Source: a virus. Taken from it: a stretch of 38,400 bases of DNA. The translations under genes were made by a program, and so were the position numbers. Positions within the stretch are counted from its first letter, which is position 1, and every line of letters begins with the position of its first letter. The notes below the pieces were generated by a model. That model saw only the letters and a list, made by a program, of their open reading frames with translations, had not been told where the DNA came from and made no database searches. The DNA is taken from UHGV virus genome UHGV-1783985. One strand, written 5' to 3'. Below, piece after piece: positions 1,576 through 19,981 of this stretch.

Positions 1576-2181
1576 CTAAGCAGCCTTCTTTGATGGTCTT
1601 TTTTTCCTGATCACATTCGCAGGGTCATACCCTCCCAGACTTTTCATGACGTCCAGAGGGATCTTGCTTATAGAGTGCCCAGCATCCTGACAGAATCCTC
1701 GAAAAACAACGAGCATACTGCCACCGGGGTTGATGTTTACTTCTACCTGACCCAAATTGACGTCAGGCTCGACAAACGCTACGCGGCCACCAGACAGAAT
1801 AATCGTCTCATTCGCACACTCTGTTGCACGCTCATACCACTTTGTATCGAGGGATTGAGGAATTAGCATCACGGTTGTAACTCCGCGAGCCTGCTCACGT
1901 ATAGCCGCATCAATCCAGGGGGAGATTTTGGAGTAGGGTGGATTGAGGAAGGCAATTGTACCTGGCTGCCCCCATTCAGATTTCAAAGCATCGCGCTCAA
2001 CGCCTATGAAATTTGGCAGCTTTGCATTGTCCTTGTTGCAGGCAACGTCAACATCAAATGTCACTCCAAGATAACGTTGAATGGCAGAAAACAGCCAATC
2101 AGGTGTTCTCCAGAGATCACGAAGAGAGTTGTCGCGCTTTCGCTGTTTGATTTTTTCAGCTGCAATCATCTTCTTTCTCAA
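1576..2181 (-). CDS. DNA N6-adenine methyltransferase (phage Dam-like)
   Basis: 201-aa ORF with DLWRTPDWLF near N-terminus and NPPYS catalytic motif, as in phage/bacterial N6-adenine methyltransferases. Confidence 0.75.
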   Translation of the reverse strand: MRKKMIAAEKIKQRKRDNSLRDLWRTPDWLFSAIQRYLGVTFDVDVACNKDNAKLPNFIGVERDALKSEWGQPGTIAFLNPPYSKISPWIDAAIREQARGVTTVMLIPQSLDTKWYERATECANETIILSGGRVAFVEPDVNLGQVEVNINPGGSMLVVFRGFCQDAGHSISKIPLDVMKSLGGYDPANVIRKKRPSKKAA

Positions 2182-9606: not shown

Positions 9607-11922
9607 TCAGATTTTGCAGGCTCCGTCGCACTCATCTTCTGGCTCGACGGCTACAGCTTGCGTCAGTGGATTCTGCGGTTCGTCGTCATCACGCTTTCCT
9701 GCCCCATCTCTGGTGTTGTGGTAGTAAAGCGTTTTAACCCCCATCTTGTAGGCGAGAAGCAAATCTGACAGTAGCGTCATCATTGGGACTTTATCGCCTT
9801 CAAAGCGAGAAGGGTCATAGTTGGTATTGGCTGAAATAGCCTGGTCAAAGAACTTCTGGATGATCGCCACCTTTGTCAGATAGCCGCGGTTGTCCGGCAT
9901 ATCCCACAGGTATTCATACTGTTTCTTCAGTTTTTCAAACTCAGGCACGACCATCTTAACGATGCCGTCCTTAGAAGATTTCACCGACACCGGTCCACGA
10001 GGCGGTTCGATGCCGTTGGTGGAATTAGTGATCTGGCTGGAAGTCTCGCATGGCATTTGTGCCGTCAGTGTGGAGTTGCGAAGACCGTATTTTGCAATAC
10101 GTTCACGCAGTTCTTCCCACGGCATCTTTAACTCAAAGTTGGTTTCACCACTTTCGTCTAATGAAGAACGGTAATGGTCGATCGGCAACTGACCAATTGC
10201 GTATTTGGTCTGCTCAAACCAGTCACACTCACCTTTAGCTTCAGCAAGTTGGCAGCTGGCATCGAGAAGGTAATACTGGATAGCTTCGAACGTTTCATGC
10301 ACCAGTTTATTGCCAGCGGTATCAGAATAACGAACGCCATTCTTTGCCAGGTAATAAGCAAAGTTGGTTACACCGATTCCCAGGCTACGACGAGCTTTGG
10401 CAGGCACTTCGGCTGCCTCCATCGGATAGTCTTGATAATCCAGTAACGAATCCAGTGCAGCGACGGCATAGAACGCCACCTCTTTAAGAGACTCCAGTGA
10501 ACGGATGGCTCCGAGATTAAAAGCGGATAAAGTGCAAAGCGCGATCTCACCGTTCGGGTCGTCGGTAAATGTCAGTGGACGGGTGGGTAGGGTGATCTCC
10601 ATACACAGGTTTGACTGGCGGACAGGTGCAAGAGCAGGAATGAAAGCGCCATGCTCGTTAATATGATCGACGTTCGCAATATAAATTCGGCCCGTGGACG
10701 CACGTTCCTGCATCAGATATGAGAACAGCTCAATGGCAGGCACTGACTTCTTGCGAATTGAATCATCGGCTTCGTATTTATGGTACAGCTTTTCAAACAG
10801 ATCCTGGTCTGTGAAGAAGGCTTCGTACATATCAGGCACATCATGCGGGCTGAACAGAGTGATGTTCTCGCTTCTGACGAGTCGACGGTACATCAGACGG
10901 TTACTCATGACACCGTAATCAAGATGGCGAACGCGGTTTTCATCGATACCACGGTTATTTTTCACCACCAGCAGACTTTCAACTTCAAGATGCCAAATCG
11001 GGTAAAACGCTGTTGCTGCGCCACCACGGACACCACCTTGCGAGCAAGATTTAACAGCCGTCTGGAAATGCTTCAGGAATGGAATAACTCCGGTATGGGT
11101 GGCTTCACCATTGCGGATCTCACTGCCCAGCGCACGGATACGGCCAAAACCAATACCAATTCCAGCACGACGTGAAACGTAGTCGATAATTGCGGCTGAA
11201 GCTGCGCTAATCCCTTTCAGACTATCGCCAGACTCAATCAGCACACAACTGGAGAACTGACGGGTTGGAGTACGGACGCCGGCCATGATTGGTGTGGGCA
11301 GAGACAGTTTGAACGTACTTGTAACGTCATAGAAACCTTTGACCATCTCCATACGTGTTTTGCCAGCGCAGTCGTCTTCCCAATTCTGGAACAGACACAT
11401 GCCTACCAGCATATAGATATGTTGCGGCCCCTCATGAATCTCACCAGTAACACGGTTTTGAACGAGGTATTTGCTTTGCAATTGCACCGTAGCTGCATAG
11501 CCAAAAAGATCGTCACGTTTAGGCTTAATGTAATTGCCGAGTTCTTCGATCTCTTCAAACGAATAATGTGTCAGCAAATCCTTGTCATAAACGCCCTTGT
11601 TAACGTTCTTGACAATGTGTTGGTAGAAGTTCGGATAGTCGTAACGACCGAAGGCATCTTTGCGGATTTTAAAAATGTTCAGGCGGGCAGCCACCTGTGA
11701 GTAATTTGGTGCATCTGGTGAGATCAAATCAGCGGCAGATTTAACCAAAGCCTCATGCAACTGGCTGGTGGTAATCCCATCAAAAATGCTGGCCGCAGCT
11801 CCCATTGCTACAGCGGATGCGCTTACACCACGAATGCCTTCTACGCCATACATTACGACGCGGTTGTATTTTTCTTCGGATAACGGCTCTGTTTGGCCGT
11901 TACGTTTTACGATGCTTATCAT
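9607..11922 (-). CDS. nrdA: Ribonucleotide reductase class Ia alpha subunit
   Basis: 771-aa ORF with long stretches matching E. coli NrdA (VTGEI, LPTPIMAGVRTPTRQFSSCVLIE, SCSQGGVRGGAAT, NLCMEI, C-terminal GACKI). Confidence 0.92.
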   Translation of the reverse strand: MISIVKRNGQTEPLSEEKYNRVVMYGVEGIRGVSASAVAMGAAASIFDGITTSQLHEALVKSAADLISPDAPNYSQVAARLNIFKIRKDAFGRYDYPNFYQHIVKNVNKGVYDKDLLTHYSFEEIEELGNYIKPKRDDLFGYAATVQLQSKYLVQNRVTGEIHEGPQHIYMLVGMCLFQNWEDDCAGKTRMEMVKGFYDVTSTFKLSLPTPIMAGVRTPTRQFSSCVLIESGDSLKGISAASAAIIDYVSRRAGIGIGFGRIRALGSEIRNGEATHTGVIPFLKHFQTAVKSCSQGGVRGGAATAFYPIWHLEVESLLVVKNNRGIDENRVRHLDYGVMSNRLMYRRLVRSENITLFSPHDVPDMYEAFFTDQDLFEKLYHKYEADDSIRKKSVPAIELFSYLMQERASTGRIYIANVDHINEHGAFIPALAPVRQSNLCMEITLPTRPLTFTDDPNGEIALCTLSAFNLGAIRSLESLKEVAFYAVAALDSLLDYQDYPMEAAEVPAKARRSLGIGVTNFAYYLAKNGVRYSDTAGNKLVHETFEAIQYYLLDASCQLAEAKGECDWFEQTKYAIGQLPIDHYRSSLDESGETNFELKMPWEELRERIAKYGLRNSTLTAQMPCETSSQITNSTNGIEPPRGPVSVKSSKDGIVKMVVPEFEKLKKQYEYLWDMPDNRGYLTKVAIIQKFFDQAISANTNYDPSRFEGDKVPMMTLLSDLLLAYKMGVKTLYYHNTRDGAGKRDDDEPQNPLTQAVAVEPEDECDGACKI

Positions 11923-16793: not shown

Positions 16794-17438
16794 TTACAGC
16801 GCGTCAGTGGGCTTTTTACGCGCTGCGTTTATGCTTATGACGCCAGCTTTTGGACGTGGGTCAACAAGGTTAAGCTCTTCTTCACTGTGGTATTCGAGGT
16901 CGAACTCACGTTTTACATGTCTGATGTAGATTGCGGTGAGCAGGCTATCTTTGGTTAGGAAGTGTCCGTAGGATTTACGGATCACTTCTTCTACCTTCTC
17001 GATTTTCTCTCCACCCATACAGAGATGATTAAACCGGCTGTGTTTTCGCAACATTTCGTCTACTGGACCTGAGTAAACCTTGTCTACTTTCCCAAAACGG
17101 ATGATTTTCCCTGTGTCTGCGGATACAAGGCAAATCAGCTTGTCTGGTGATAAACGATCTCGCCACGTCACACCTGAACGAAGTGTGTTGAAGTAGGGGG
17201 CATCCAATCCGATGATCGGTTTACGAAATGCGAGCAATGGAACGTACCTGATGCAACTGTTTAAATGAAAGTTCACACCAGCCTTATCAAGTTTAATTCT
17301 GGTTTCGTAGATCGGGCACTTCGCCGCTATACCGCAGATGTCACAAAGCAGCTTCTGCTTATTCAGGTTGGAATTTGATTCGATAGTGTAGGAGCCGTCT
17401 TCAAGACGACGAACCCAGCGCGTGCGTTTTAGATCCAT
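16794..17438 (-). CDS. Hypothetical protein
   Basis: 214-aa ORF; no motif recognised. Confidence 0.45.
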   Translation of the reverse strand: MDLKRTRWVRRLEDGSYTIESNSNLNKQKLLCDICGIAAKCPIYETRIKLDKAGVNFHLNSCIRYVPLLAFRKPIIGLDAPYFNTLRSGVTWRDRLSPDKLICLVSADTGKIIRFGKVDKVYSGPVDEMLRKHSRFNHLCMGGEKIEKVEEVIRKSYGHFLTKDSLLTAIYIRHVKREFDLEYHSEEELNLVDPRPKAGVISINAARKKPTDAL

Positions 17439-17637
17439 ATGTCATTTTTCTGTGATTGTTAGCCGAGGCAACGATAACCCACCAGGTGCGCCGAAGGTAG
17501 TAAATGCCTGTTTTAATTATTCACATATCCACAGGATAGATCCTAATAAAGAGATCCATAGATAGATCCTTGTATAGATCAAATAAGATCCCCGATCGCT
17601 GTAAGCCGCGCCACGACTGGTCTGAAGTCATGTTCAT

Positions 17638-17739
17638 GTATGCTGCCAGCGGTAATTGATAGTCTGTCAACGGTTCGCCGTATGCTGCCAACTGTTTTTG
17701 GTATGCTGCCAGCGGCAAATCAAGTATGCTGTCAGCGGT
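17638..17739. repeat. Iteron cluster upstream of rep (about 4 copies)
   Basis: Direct repeats of consensus GTATGCTG(C/T)CAGCGGT at 17638, 17701, 17724 plus a degenerate copy near 17679. Confidence 0.8.
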
Positions 17740-17759
17740 TGAATGACAAAGGTGTCCAC

Positions 17760-18854
17760 ATGTCCACAAAAAATAAAAAAGGTAAAAATAACAAAGAAGT
17801 AGAAGATAATCTCGACAACTTTGAAGAAGGTTCCCTTGAATTGTACACAGGGGAACTTGTCCCTAATAGCAACAATACAGTCCAACCAATTGCGTTGATG
17901 CGGCTGGGGTTGTTCGTGCCCACGCTCAAGGGGACAAAATACAGCAAGCGTAACAAGCCAAATGAGATCGATGCTTCAAAGGAGCTTGTTCAGCTCGAAG
18001 TAGCCCGTTCTGAAGGCTATTCCGATATCAAGATAACCGGTCCTCGTCTCGACATGGATCATGATTTCAAAACGTGGGTGGGCGTCGTGCGTTCGCTGGC
18101 AGAATACGGCGAACCTAACGGTCGTGTCGAGTTAAGCATCACGAAATTTGCGAAGTTTTGTGGCTATCCATCGTCACAGATCCGCAAAACACTCCGCGAC
18201 CGGCTTACAAACAGTCTTTTGAAGATTATGCGTACCACTCTGTCTTTCCAGAGAACGTATGAAGAAAAGAATGTCGACGGTTCTAACAAGATCTCGCTTC
18301 TGATGGTGCACCTCATCAATAGCGTGGACTACAACGAGCAGAAAGATACGGTGGTATTCTATGCAGAACCGAAGCTGGCCGAACTATATCGCTTTGACCA
18401 TAAGGTTCTTTTGCAGTTAAAGGTTATCAATAAGCTACCACGCAAAGAAACAGCACAGGCTCTGTACACCTTCATCGAAAGTCTTCCAACCAAGCCTGCG
18501 CCGGTATCGCTTGCTCGATTGCGTGCGCGACTCAATTTGAGTAGCAGGAATGTCAGCTCGCAGAATCAGACTATACGTAACGGCTTAAAAGTTCTTCAAG
18601 ATTTGGGCTATCTCGAATACAGCGAGATTAAGCGAGGGCGGTCGATCTATATCCAGATTCACAGCCGCAATCCAAAACTCAAAGTCGCACCGCCAAAACC
18701 TGAAGACATCGAACCCAAAAAACCAGATGAGAAAGCTGGGGAAATTGATGCCAAACAGAACATTATCAACAAGATAACCGAACTTTCGCAGAATTTGACG
18801 CCTGAAAATATCAAGATGATTGAGATCCTTTCCAATAGTCTCAAACTGCTTTGA
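17760..18854 (+). CDS. Putative iteron-binding replication initiator (Rep-like origin-binding protein)
   Basis: Plus-strand ORF flanked on both sides by iterons; start placed at ATG 17760 (MSTKNKKGK), the ORF-track start at 17640 lies inside the iterons. Basic N-terminus and size (364 aa) consistent with plasmid RepA-type initiators; assignment by context. Confidence 0.6.
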   Translation: MSTKNKKGKNNKEVEDNLDNFEEGSLELYTGELVPNSNNTVQPIALMRLGLFVPTLKGTKYSKRNKPNEIDASKELVQLEVARSEGYSDIKITGPRLDMDHDFKTWVGVVRSLAEYGEPNGRVELSITKFAKFCGYPSSQIRKTLRDRLTNSLLKIMRTTLSFQRTYEEKNVDGSNKISLLMVHLINSVDYNEQKDTVVFYAEPKLAELYRFDHKVLLQLKVINKLPRKETAQALYTFIESLPTKPAPVSLARLRARLNLSSRNVSSQNQTIRNGLKVLQDLGYLEYSEIKRGRSIYIQIHSRNPKLKVAPPKPEDIEPKKPDEKAGEIDAKQNIINKITELSQNLTPENIKMIEILSNSLKLL

Positions 18855-19386
18855 TATGCTGTCAGCGGTGAAATGTATGCTATCAGCGGCTATTTTTCTG
18901 AAAAGTATGCTGTGAACGGTTAGAGATATGCTACTAGCGGTATAGTGAGATAAACGTATGCTGTGAGCGGTAAAACATCTATCACCACTCAATGCTCTGT
19001 CATACCTACCCAGTGGTTACTAACCTCGAAGAGTGCATTCCATATAGGTTTGCGCTCACTAACATTCTATTGCCATTGCGCTGATTGCTTGTAGTGAAAG
19101 GCATTTATTGCCTGCTGCTCCCTGATAGAACGTATGCTGTCAGCGGTGTTTTATTGAGGAATTTTTGTTTGGATATGCTATCAGCGGTAATTAATGGTAT
19201 ATGTCAGACCTTCGTATGCTGCCAGCGGTAATTTTGTTCTGGTTATACCCATACCGGTACACATTATTCATGCAATGTCTTAAGTATGCTGTCAGCGGTA
19301 AAAAATCGAGTAAAGTATGCTGTGAGCGGTGAGATAAACTCTCGATATGCTATCAGCGGTAATTGATTGTGTATGCTGTCAGCGGT
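18854..19386. repeat. Iteron array downstream of rep (about 11 copies), putative replication origin
   Basis: 16-bp repeats (G/A)TATGCT(G/A)(T/C)(C/G)A(G/A)CGGT at 18854, 18875, 18905, 18926, 18956, 19132, 19173, 19214, 19284, 19314, 19345, 19371; spacing mostly 21-41 bp, same orientation. Confidence 0.8.
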
Positions 19387-19433
19387 GACGACAATGAAAT
19401 ATGACTGCGGAACGAGCCGCAGTCAGTTTGCAT

Positions 19434-19646
19434 TTAGTGTATTTTCTTTAACAGACCCCAAAGTGTCCCGGCTTTTGTAGTCAGTTTTCCTGTTTCTGGA
19501 TCGTACATACGCCATTCACGCCGCTGGTGGACGATATACCCATCTTCACGTTCCAGACGCTCAAGAATGCCAGGCTGCTTGAAGCCCTTAGCACGCCAGT
19601 AGCCGCTTGTTTTCTCGATTTCCAGACCTGCCAGTGTTAATGCCAT
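19434..19646 (-). CDS. Hypothetical small protein
   Basis: 70-aa ORF; start overlaps upstream gene stop. Confidence 0.45.
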   Translation of the reverse strand: MALTLAGLEIEKTSGYWRAKGFKQPGILERLEREDGYIVHQRREWRMYDPETGKLTTKAGTLWGLLKKIH

Positions 19647-19981
19647 TATCCAACCTCCTTGCAGTCATCGAAAAGGTAGCTTTGCTGAGAAGCGTGAACG
19701 CCATAGAAGCCCTTGTATTTGTTGTATACGAAGTGGTCTTCTCCGACGCCGGTTAATTTGCCATTACGGTTTGTGAGATATGGGGATGACAATACTCGAT
19801 CGTCACGCACAACATAGAACTGGTCGCCGCTGTCTACGACCATCGCGCCATATGGTGCTTTTATGACGTCGGTAAGAGCGCCATTCTTAACTTCGGCTAC
19901 AGACATTTCACACTGATAAACAGTGGCGTCGGCCACAACGATCGAAGAAAGGAACAACAGAGCGAATGGGATGGCCTTCAT
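19646..19981 (-). CDS. Secreted/periplasmic small protein
   Basis: 111 aa; N-terminal signal peptide MKAIPFALLFLSSIVVADA followed by a hydrophilic domain with one Cys pair. Confidence 0.55.
   Translation of the reverse strand: MKAIPFALLFLSSIVVADATVYQCEMSVAEVKNGALTDVIKAPYGAMVVDSGDQFYVVRDDRVLSSPYLTNRNGKLTGVGEDHFVYNKYKGFYGVHASQQSYLFDDCKEVG

What the first reader, a model, noticed from the sequence alone, without database searches (positions are those of the whole stretch)
17520..19400. Plasmid-like replicon: Rep-type initiator gene flanked by about 15 iterons
A 16-bp motif GTATGCTGYCAGCGGT occurs about 4 times just upstream and about 11 times downstream of the only long plus-strand gene in a minus-strand block. 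Regular same-orientation repeats bracketing an initiator-sized basic protein are the architecture of iteron-controlled theta replicons. This is the likeliest replication origin of the element and may allow plasmid-like maintenance.
Basis: partly seen in the sequence, partly recalled or inferred. Interest (0 to 1): 0.7.

Follow-up and report, generated by a model that had tools for sequence, protein, structure and literature searches.

The report
P1-type plasmid replicon of phage-plasmid
This is the plasmid-maintenance replication origin of a known E. coli phage-plasmid (pECOH89 type): an initiator gene related to phage P1 RepA, flanked by 17 copies of its binding site. It is real but ordinary.

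Summary
The 16-bp motif GTATGCTGYCAGCGGT occurs 17 times on the + strand. Five copies lie upstream of the 364-aa gene at 17760..18854 and twelve lie downstream. About 0.4 matches are expected by chance in the whole window.

The protein is 46% identical, end to end, to bacteriophage P1 RepA. It passes the Pfam Rep3_N cut-off. Its predicted core folds like the RepE, pi and RctB initiators.

The layout copies P1 oriR/incC–repA–incA element for element:
- two tandem DnaA boxes;
- an AT-rich cluster of six GATC sites;
- a GC-rich spacer;
- five iterons spaced 21/21/21/23 bp;
- the rep gene;
- a downstream iteron array whose first copy overlaps the stop codon.

The DnaA-box and GATC stretch aligns with P1 at the nucleotide level.

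The same replicon occurs in pECOH89 (98.3% identity over 1909 bp, same 5+12 iterons). pECOH89 is the plasmid after which the replicon type IncFIB(H89-PhagePlasmid) is named. About 120 other Escherichia/Shigella SSU5-like phage-plasmids also carry it.

Differences from P1:
- all twelve downstream iterons are direct;
- the par genes are not adjacent;
- a conserved 64-bp non-iteron block of unknown function interrupts the array.

Autonomous replication and copy control were not tested.

The parts
17517..17533 (+). Two tandem DnaA boxes (TTATTCACA and ATATCCACA) at the left edge of the origin
   Evidence: They show 0 and 1 mismatch to TTWTNCACA. They align with the DnaA protein_bind feature annotated in P1 oriR.
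17534..17597 (+). AT-rich cluster of six GATC sites, five of them inside (A/T)AGATCC heptamers. This is the likely DNA-unwinding element and the target of Dam methylation and SeqA.
   Evidence: GATC sites lie at 17539, 17553, 17565, 17577, 17587 and 17594, against 4.6 per kb in the window (Poisson P 4e-7). GC content is 0.35. The stretch aligns base for base with the five annotated Dam sites of P1 oriR.
17598..17637 (+). GC-rich spacer (core CCGCGCCACG) between the GATC cluster and the iterons
   Evidence: It is conserved in the window, Klebsiella pJN2-26, P1 and RCS47, and nearly so in JK004, in alignment A1.
17638..17739 (+). Five origin iterons (incC-like) spaced 21/21/21/23 bp. The second copy (17659) is degenerate.
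   Evidence: P1 incC has the same number and phasing (21/21/21/22). The same five copies occur in pECOH89 and in the Salmonella, Citrobacter and Klebsiella relatives.
17698..17727 (+). Candidate rep promoter TTGGTA-N18-AAGTAT, overlapping iterons 4 and 5. The match is weak and the position is inferred.
   Evidence: It is the positional equivalent of the annotated P1 PrepA. It matches only 7 of 12 consensus positions. The standard scan found no + strand promoter here.
17752..17768 (+). Two weak DnaA-box-like 9-mers (GTGTCCACA and ATGTCCACA) that span the rep start codon
   Evidence: Each has 2 mismatches to TTWTNCACA. A TATCCAC(A) motif lies between the last iteron and the rep start in Klebsiella, SSU5, P1 and JK004.
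17760..18854 (+). rep gene for a 364-aa RepA-type initiator: a WH1-WH2 core (about aa 32-309) and a C-terminal tail (310-364) that P1 RepA lacks
   Evidence: Pfam Rep3_N. 46% identity to P1 RepA over aa 32-309. PHROG 775 at E 1e-132. The AlphaFold2 core matches RctB, RepE, pi, pPS10 RepA and TrfA.
18854..18971 (+). Downstream iteron cluster A: five direct iterons spaced 21/30/21/30 bp. The first overlaps the rep stop codon.
   Evidence: The first incA iteron of P1 overlaps the repA stop codon in the same way.
19005..19068 (+). Conserved non-iteron block with two YACTAAC half-sites 41 bp apart. Its function is unknown.
   Evidence: 26 of 64 positions are invariant, without gaps, across E. coli, Salmonella, Citrobacter, Klebsiella and SSU5, where it is inverted. 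There is one copy per element.
19132..19229 (+). Downstream iteron cluster B1: three direct iterons spaced 41 bp
19284..19386 (+). Downstream iteron cluster B2: four direct iterons spaced 31/30/26 bp
   Evidence: The last three are missing in phage PhiR41_1.
19402..19425 (.). GC-rich hairpin (9-bp stem) between the iteron array and the convergent 70-aa gene. It is probably a terminator that closes the replicon.
   Evidence: The terminator-like scan finds it on both strands. The stem is conserved, with a different loop, in Salmonella.

Best explanation
This is the plasmid-prophage replicon of an SSU5-like phage-plasmid of the pECOH89 type, and it is built like the oriR/incC–repA–incA replicon of bacteriophage P1. 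The steps below are inferred from homology with P1; none was tested here.

1. Rep monomers bind the five in-phase iterons at 17638-17739.
2. Together with host DnaA bound at the tandem boxes (17517-17533), they open the adjacent AT-rich GATC-heptamer region (17534-17597). The host replisome then loads for theta replication.
3. The six GATC sites make firing depend on Dam methylation and allow SeqA to sequester the origin after initiation.
4. The rep promoter must lie within the iteron block, so Rep represses its own synthesis.
5. The twelve downstream iterons (18854-19386) are not part of the origin. They titrate Rep and pair with origin iterons (looping in cis, handcuffing in trans), which holds copy number low and causes incompatibility.

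What is shown here: the repeats, their phasing, the family and fold of the protein, nucleotide-level homology of the origin core to P1, and occurrence of this replicon on circular plasmids.
For: - The repeats are real and far beyond chance.
- Rep is 46% identical to P1 RepA over aa 20-284 of its 286 residues (E 7e-86; tblastn).
- Pfam Rep3_N scores above its cut-off.
- The predicted fold matches the WH1-WH2 iteron initiators RctB, RepE, pi, pPS10 RepA and TrfA.
- The curated P1 record annotates DnaA site, five Dam sites, five incC iterons with PrepA inside, repA, then incA starting at the stop codon. The window has the same order, number and spacing.
- Window 17506-17620 aligns with P1 oriR at 77% identity (E 3e-16).
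- Relatives with other iteron sequences (SSU5, P1-like JK004, RepFIB-type RCS47) keep the same architecture.
- Relatives with Rep at 85-93% identity keep the same iteron sequence and the same five upstream copies, while the downstream count varies from 8 to 12.
- The replicon is 98.3% identical to that of pECOH89. It sits on about 120 circular, non-mobilizable plasmids of roughly 60-200 kb, mostly near 110 kb.
- Plasmids highly similar to pECOH89 are typed IncFIB(H89-PhagePlasmid) (PMC12838234). pECOH89 was isolated as a plasmid (PMC3999498).
- The Klebsiella cousins were described as an iteron-regulated IncpKPHS1 replicon (PMC6735626).
Against: - No experiment on this replicon was found. Rep-iteron binding, autonomous replication and copy control are all inferred.
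- No convincing sigma-70 promoter match lies in front of rep.
- The downstream array differs from P1 incA: all 12 copies are direct, whereas P1 has 3 direct and 6 inverted. It is also interrupted by a conserved non-iteron block. Its control mode may therefore differ.
- There is no GC-skew switch at the origin.
- The par genes are not adjacent as they are in P1.
Confidence: 0.88

Rival explanations
1. The downstream array, or part of it, is itself an origin, or is needed in cis for initiation, rather than being a purely negative control element.
For: It holds more iterons than the upstream set, in phased clusters. It also contains a conserved non-iteron block that could bind a host factor.
Against: No DnaA boxes, GATC cluster or AT-rich stretch accompany it. 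The downstream copy number varies from 8 to 12 among close relatives, and three copies are missing from phage PhiR41_1, whose record names E. coli K-12 MG1655 as host. In contrast, the upstream five are invariant. The array is positionally homologous to P1 incA.
Confidence: 0.07
2. The repeats, or the block within them, serve another protein, for example as a partition centromere or a phage regulator operator, and not only Rep.
For: The 64-bp block is conserved across replicons with unrelated iterons, so something other than iteron-specific Rep binding may hold it in place. ParB-like genes exist elsewhere on the element.
Against: The 16-bp repeats downstream are the same sequence as the origin iterons and change together with Rep type across the family. 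The block has a single copy and no dyad or array typical of centromeres.
Confidence: 0.08
3. The repeats are attachment sites, as annotated (attL/attR) in the GenBank record of Klebsiella phage pJN2-26.
For: That record labels two 20-bp copies flanking rep as attR and attL.
Against: There are 13-17 copies, not two. The element is a circular plasmid. The two labelled sites are ordinary iterons.
Confidence: 0.01

Closest known systems
Bacteriophage P1 / P7 plasmid replicon (oriR-incC, repA, incA)
   Same: The initiator is homologous (46% identity end to end). The order is the same: two DnaA boxes, a GATC-heptamer cluster, a GC-rich spacer, five iterons in 21-bp phase, rep, then a downstream iteron array whose first copy overlaps the stop codon. 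The origin core shows nucleotide-level homology (77% over 118 aligned positions).
   Different: - The iteron sequence differs (GTATGCTGYCAGCGGT against GATGTGTGCTGGAGGGAAA).
- There are 12 downstream iterons, all direct, against 9 in P1 (3 direct and 6 inverted).
- The array is split by a conserved 64-bp block that P1-group loci lack.
- Rep has a 31-aa N-terminal extension and a 55-aa C-terminal extension.
- parAB-parS is not adjacent.
- There are six GATC sites rather than five.
pECOH89 / p09EL50 replicon (replicon type IncFIB(H89-PhagePlasmid))
   Same: It is essentially the same sequence: 98.3% nucleotide identity over 1909 bp without gaps, identical 5+12 iteron positions, and 2 amino-acid differences in the 364-aa Rep.
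   Different: Nothing of substance. I found no published iteron or origin map for this replicon.
IncpKPHS1 replicon of Klebsiella SSU5-like phage-plasmids (pKPHS1, pPMK1-B, pJN2-26)
   Same: Rep is 85-87% identical. The iteron sequence is the same, with the same five upstream copies, and all downstream copies are direct.
   Different: There are 8-9 downstream iterons, and the conserved block lies after the array rather than inside it. The 2019 description reported only four downstream iterons and no known domain for RepA (PMC6735626).
SSU5 / pLF82 (Cyrano) replicon
   Same: The phage backbone and flanking genes are the same. The DnaA-box and GATC part is continuous with backbone homology at 77%. 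The architecture is the same, and the conserved 64-bp block is present.
   Different: Rep is only 48% identical. The iterons are unrelated (TAACCACTGTAGWGAGTAG; no hit in the window). The downstream array mixes direct and inverted copies, and the block is inverted.
RepE (F), pi (R6K), RepA (pPS10), RctB (Vibrio chromosome 2): solved WH1-WH2 iteron initiators
   Same: The predicted fold of the core matches them (Foldseek E 7e-8 to 4e-3).
   Different: Sequence identity is only 10-16% in those fold alignments, with no hit by sequence search of the PDB. These are different subfamilies.

Membership tests
Rep3 / RepA (WH1-WH2) iteron-binding initiator family | Sequence match to the family profile above the curated threshold | tested here: met
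   Pfam PF01051 Rep3_N scores 36.8 bits against a cut-off of 22.4. All 120 listed homologues carry PF01051.
Rep3 / RepA (WH1-WH2) iteron-binding initiator family | Two winged-helix domains, as in RepE and pi | tested here: met
   The AlphaFold2 model has mostly pLDDT 76-92 over aa 70-305 (aa 211-230 drop to about 58). Foldseek top hits are RctB domains 2-3, RepE, the Rep-DUE complex, pi, pPS10 WH1 and TrfA. Overall pLDDT is only 71 and TM-scores are 0.26-0.52, so the support is moderate.
P1-type (P1/P7/RepFIB-like) iteron replicon | Initiator homologous to P1 RepA | tested here: met
   BLASTP gives 46% identity, E 7e-86, covering aa 20-284 of 286.
P1-type (P1/P7/RepFIB-like) iteron replicon | Five direct iterons in about 21-bp phase immediately upstream of rep | tested here: met
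   Spacing is 21/21/21/23 in the window against 21/21/21/22 in P1.
P1-type (P1/P7/RepFIB-like) iteron replicon | Tandem DnaA boxes and a GATC-heptamer cluster on the rep-distal side of the iterons | tested here: met
   The stretch aligns with the annotated P1 features.
P1-type (P1/P7/RepFIB-like) iteron replicon | rep promoter embedded in the origin iterons (autorepression) | tested here: inconclusive
   Only weak hexamer matches were found. The position is inferred from the annotated P1 PrepA.
P1-type (P1/P7/RepFIB-like) iteron replicon | Second iteron array directly downstream of rep (incA-type control locus) | tested here: met
   Twelve copies begin at the stop codon, as in P1. Orientation differs: all are direct.
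P1-type (P1/P7/RepFIB-like) iteron replicon | Adjacent parA-parB-parS partition operon | tested here: not met
   The downstream neighbours are small minus-strand genes of unknown function. ParB-domain genes lie about 43 kb away in pEC881_2. This is a feature of P1 itself, not of the replicon class.
P1-type (P1/P7/RepFIB-like) iteron replicon | Autonomous replication dependent on Rep, DnaA and Dam, with higher copy number when the downstream array is deleted | not testable with these tools
   This needs mini-replicon and copy-number experiments.
IncFIB(H89-PhagePlasmid) replicon type | Near-identity to the pECOH89 rep region | tested here: met
   98.3% identity over 1909 bp, and Rep 397/404 identical in the RefSeq frame. 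The type name comes from PMC12838234. The PlasmidFinder database itself was not queried.

The most novel reading that the evidence does not exclude
The 64-bp block at 19005-19068 may be a previously undescribed cis-acting site. It is conserved inside or beside the downstream iteron array in every SSU5-group replicon examined, whatever the Rep and iteron specificity, and it is inverted in SSU5. It could bind a host or phage factor, or Rep dimers through a half-site. It could, for example, set the looping geometry between the control array and the origin, or couple plasmid replication to the lysis-lysogeny state.
Probability: 0.2. Interest if true: 0.35.

Novelty: already known. Interest (0 to 1): 0.15.

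Why it matters
The result places this window in a well-known element. It is the pECOH89-type SSU5-like phage-plasmid, which spreads blaCTX-M-15 in E. coli. The region 17517-19425 is the element's plasmid-maintenance replicon and incompatibility determinant. The practical value is modest:
- a base-level map of the origin, the iterons and the correct rep start codon for a replicon used in plasmid typing;
- correction of database mis-annotations (a 404-aa start, the label "replication helicase", and attL/attR features);
- a ready design for mini-replicon, incompatibility and copy-number experiments.

It does not open a new biological question.

Tried and rejected
- **Relic SSU5-type iterons in the non-iteron gaps, which would mark a replicon swap.** A position weight matrix built from 15 SSU5 iterons scored at most 1.8 bits in the window, against at least 23.8 bits for true copies. 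Rejected.
- **A structured RNA or small gene in the gaps.** Rfam gave no hit at E up to 1. Only short ORFs of 22-48 aa without support were found. Only one 9-nt inverted repeat with a 54-nt gap was found in 18960-19300, with no hairpin in the block. Rejected.
- **GC-skew switch as an origin marker.** Skew is negative on both sides and follows the coding strand. Uninformative.
- **Direct sequence match to solved structures.** None was found. Fold comparison was needed instead.
- **NCBIfam.** No family matched.
- **A strong sigma-70 promoter for rep.** None was found.
- **The 404-aa RefSeq start at 17640.** Rejected. Against pECOH89, the extra 40 codons are iteron DNA carrying 5 of 40 substitutions, while the remaining 364 codons carry 2 (Fisher p 1.4e-4). 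Homology to P1 RepA begins at aa 32 of the short form.
- **Failed retrievals.** Accessions HG530657, MW590712 and CP003298 and two papers could not be retrieved. pECOH89 was reached as NC_023916.1 instead.

Full report
**1. The observation**

The motif GTATGCTGYCAGCGGT, allowing up to three mismatches, matches 18 times in the 38.4-kb window. Shuffled sequence gives 0.44 matches, and none of 100 shuffles reached 18. Sixteen matches lie on the + strand between 17638 and 19386. A looser scan and a position weight matrix add a degenerate copy at 17659.

The true arrangement is as follows.
- Five copies lie upstream of the gene, at 17638, 17659, 17680, 17701 and 17724. Their spacing is 21/21/21/23 bp.
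- Twelve copies lie downstream, in three groups. The first group is 18854, 18875, 18905, 18926 and 18956. The second is 19132, 19173 and 19214. The third is 19284, 19315, 19345 and 19371.
- All copies share one orientation.

The gene at 17760..18854 encodes 364 aa with pI 9.46. It is the only + strand gene among the minus-strand genes from the window's start to about 36 kb.

**2. What the protein is**

- Pfam Rep3_N (initiator WH1 domain) matches at 36.8 bits, above the 22.4-bit cut-off.
- tblastn against phage genomes finds P1 and P7 RepA at 43.5% identity (E 2e-64) and SSU5 and Cyrano RepA at 48%.
- Pairwise BLASTP against the curated P1 RepA gives 46% identity and E 7e-86. It covers residues 20-284 of the 286-aa P1 protein.
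- The window protein therefore equals a P1 RepA core plus about 31 N-terminal residues and a 55-residue C-terminal tail.
- An AlphaFold2 model built from 29 homologues has mean pLDDT 71, and mostly 76-92 over residues 70-305.
- Its best matches among solved structures are RctB domains 2-3, RepE, a Rep-DUE complex, pi, pPS10 RepA WH1 and TrfA. These are the winged-helix iteron initiators.
- Sequence search of the PDB alone found nothing, and NCBIfam had no model.

**3. What the DNA around it is**

The curated P1 record annotates, in order:
- a DnaA site of two tandem boxes;
- five Dam (GATC) sites;
- five RepA-binding incC iterons spaced 21/21/21/22 bp, with the repA promoter inside them;
- repA;
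- nine incA iterons, the first beginning at the last base of repA.

The window has the same order:
- tandem DnaA boxes TTATTCACA and ATATCCACA at 17517-17533;
- six GATC sites in 59 bp at 17539-17597, against a window average of 4.6 per kb (Poisson P 4e-7), in a stretch of 35% GC;
- a GC-rich spacer;
- the five iterons;
- rep;
- a downstream array whose first copy begins at the last base of the stop codon.

This is homology, not only analogy. Window 17506-17620 aligns with P1 oriR at 77% identity (E 3e-16). A six-way alignment with P1, JK004, RCS47, SSU5 and Klebsiella pJN2-26 shows invariant columns through the DnaA boxes, the GATC heptamers and the CCGCGCCACG spacer. The iterons themselves differ.

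**4. Comparative support that the repeats are Rep sites**

Relatives with a different Rep lineage have different iterons in the same architecture.
- SSU5 uses TAACCACTGTAGWGAGTAG.
- P1-like JK004 uses the P1 type.
- RepFIB-type RCS47 uses TGTTGACTATACGCGA.

Relatives with Rep at 85-93% identity (Klebsiella, Salmonella, Citrobacter) keep exactly the window's iteron and the same five upstream copies. Their downstream copies number 8, 9 or 11, and PhiR41_1 has 9. An invariant upstream set and a variable downstream set fit an essential origin plus a dispensable control array.

**5. Which element this is**

The 2-kb region is 98-99% identical to about 120 circular plasmids that PLSDB types as non-mobilizable. 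They range from about 60 to 200 kb, mostly near 110 kb, and come from E. coli, E. albertii and Shigella. It is also 98-99% identical to phages PhiR41_1 and CMS-2020a.

The annotated relative pEC881_2 carries the following:
- siphovirus structural genes;
- its own dnaE, DnaB-like helicase, primase and ligase;
- nrdAB, thyA, dfr and recA;
- an integrase.

It is therefore an SSU5-like phage-plasmid.

pECOH89 (NC_023916.1) matches at 98.3% over 1909 bp without gaps and has the same 5+12 iterons. pECOH89 was isolated as a non-conjugative plasmid. Its RepA was reported as 48% similar to that of pLF82 (PMC3999498). That figure matches our 47.9% to Cyrano, which is pLF82. Plasmids highly similar to pECOH89 are typed IncFIB(H89-PhagePlasmid) (PMC12838234). 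Typing tools are known to include SSU5-group rep genes as IncFIB (bioRxiv 10.1101/2025.09.12.675607).

The Klebsiella cousins were named IncpKPHS1 and called iteron-regulated. That paper reported only four downstream iterons and no domain match for RepA (PMC6735626).

**6. Most likely mechanism**

The mechanism is inferred by homology with P1, from the P1 record notes, a general review of iteron plasmids (PMC6312765), and established knowledge of P1 oriR.

1. Rep monomers occupy the five phased iterons.
2. With DnaA at the tandem boxes, they open the AT-rich GATC-heptamer region.
3. Dam methylation of the six GATC sites licenses firing, and SeqA sequesters the hemimethylated origin. The element encodes its own Dam-family methylase at 1576..2181.
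4. The rep promoter must lie in 17598-17759, which is almost entirely iteron DNA, so Rep represses its own gene.
5. The twelve downstream iterons titrate Rep and pair with the origin, which limits copy number and causes incompatibility.

The weak points are these.
- No good sigma-70 match precedes rep. The best positional equivalent of P1 PrepA is TTGGTA-N18-AAGTAT at 17698-17727.
- The downstream array is all direct, whereas P1 has three direct and six inverted copies.
- Nothing here was tested experimentally.
- GC skew shows no switch at the origin.
- Because the element carries a full replisome set, this origin probably serves the plasmid state only. That point is an inference.

**7. Side observations**

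- The backbone homology to SSU5 (77%) runs from the upstream gene through the DnaA and GATC region. It stops at 17598, where the iterons begin, and resumes at 19436. The specificity module (iterons plus rep) has therefore diverged or been exchanged within a conserved frame.
- Inside the 160-bp gap of the downstream array lies a 64-bp block (19005-19068). Of its 64 positions, 26 are invariant without gaps across E. coli, Salmonella, Citrobacter, Klebsiella and SSU5, where it is inverted.
- The block occurs once per element and is absent from the P1-group loci. It has no Rfam hit, no credible ORF and no hairpin. Its function is unexplained.
- The RefSeq 404-aa start at 17640 reads through the iterons and is probably wrong.

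**8. Verdict**

The finding is real and was correctly interpreted. It is a textbook P1-type iteron replicon on an already catalogued phage-plasmid. Novelty is low and interest is low.

Noticed in passing
window 19005-19068: A conserved 64-bp non-iteron block lies inside the downstream iteron array (CCCAGTGGTTACTAACC ... GGTTTGCGCTCACTAAC). Of its 64 positions, 26 are invariant across E. coli, Salmonella, Citrobacter, Klebsiella and SSU5, where it is inverted. It is absent from the P1-group replicons examined and occurs once per element. Its function is unknown. From memory only, it loosely resembles a Tus Ter core, and it contains an iteron-like half-site, CAGTGGTTA.
   Followed up: partly
window 17640-17759: RefSeq records call a 404-aa Rep that starts inside the first iteron. 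Against pECOH89, 5 of these 40 extra codons differ, compared with 2 of the remaining 364 (Fisher p 1.4e-4). Homology to P1 RepA starts later. The 364-aa start at 17760 is the likely true start.
   Followed up: yes
L006 (Klebsiella phage pJN2-26) 1378-1397 and 2648-2667: The GenBank record labels two ordinary iterons flanking rep as phage attachment sites attR and attL. This is an annotation artefact.
   Followed up: yes
window 17760-18854; PHROG 775; RefSeq P1, P7 and SSU5 records: The RepA initiator family is labelled 'replication helicase' in PHROGs and in several RefSeq phage records. Pfam matched only the Rep3_N initiator domain, with no helicase family, so the label is misleading.
   Followed up: partly
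window 1576-2181 (minus strand): The element encodes its own Dam-family N6-adenine methyltransferase (Pfam PF05869, 131.8 bits). It could keep the six origin GATC sites methylated independently of the host.
   Followed up: partly
window 16804-17598 and 19436-19800 against SSU5 (L004): Nucleotide homology to SSU5 (77-81%) covers the flanking genes and the DnaA-box and GATC part of the origin. It breaks exactly at the iterons and rep, where only patchy similarity remains and Rep is 48% identical. This suggests exchange or fast divergence of the Rep-iteron specificity module within a conserved frame.
   Followed up: partly
L002 (phage PhiR41_1) 4060-4137 against window 19284-19386: The number of downstream iterons is polymorphic. 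PhiR41_1 lacks the last three copies. Counts are 8-9 in Klebsiella and 11 in Salmonella and Citrobacter, while the five upstream copies are constant.
   Followed up: yes
window 18687-18851 (Rep aa 310-364): The C-terminal tail, absent from P1 RepA, is predicted as a disordered acidic and proline-rich linker followed by two helices (pLDDT about 80). Many RepFIB-type homologues of 336-340 aa carry a comparable tail. Its role is unknown.
   Followed up: no
window 10305-10320 (+), 18092-18107 (-), 35303 (-): Isolated weak iteron-like matches (3 mismatches, or 10 bits or more on the weight matrix) lie outside the arrays, one of them inside rep on the opposite strand. They are probably chance matches.
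   Followed up: no
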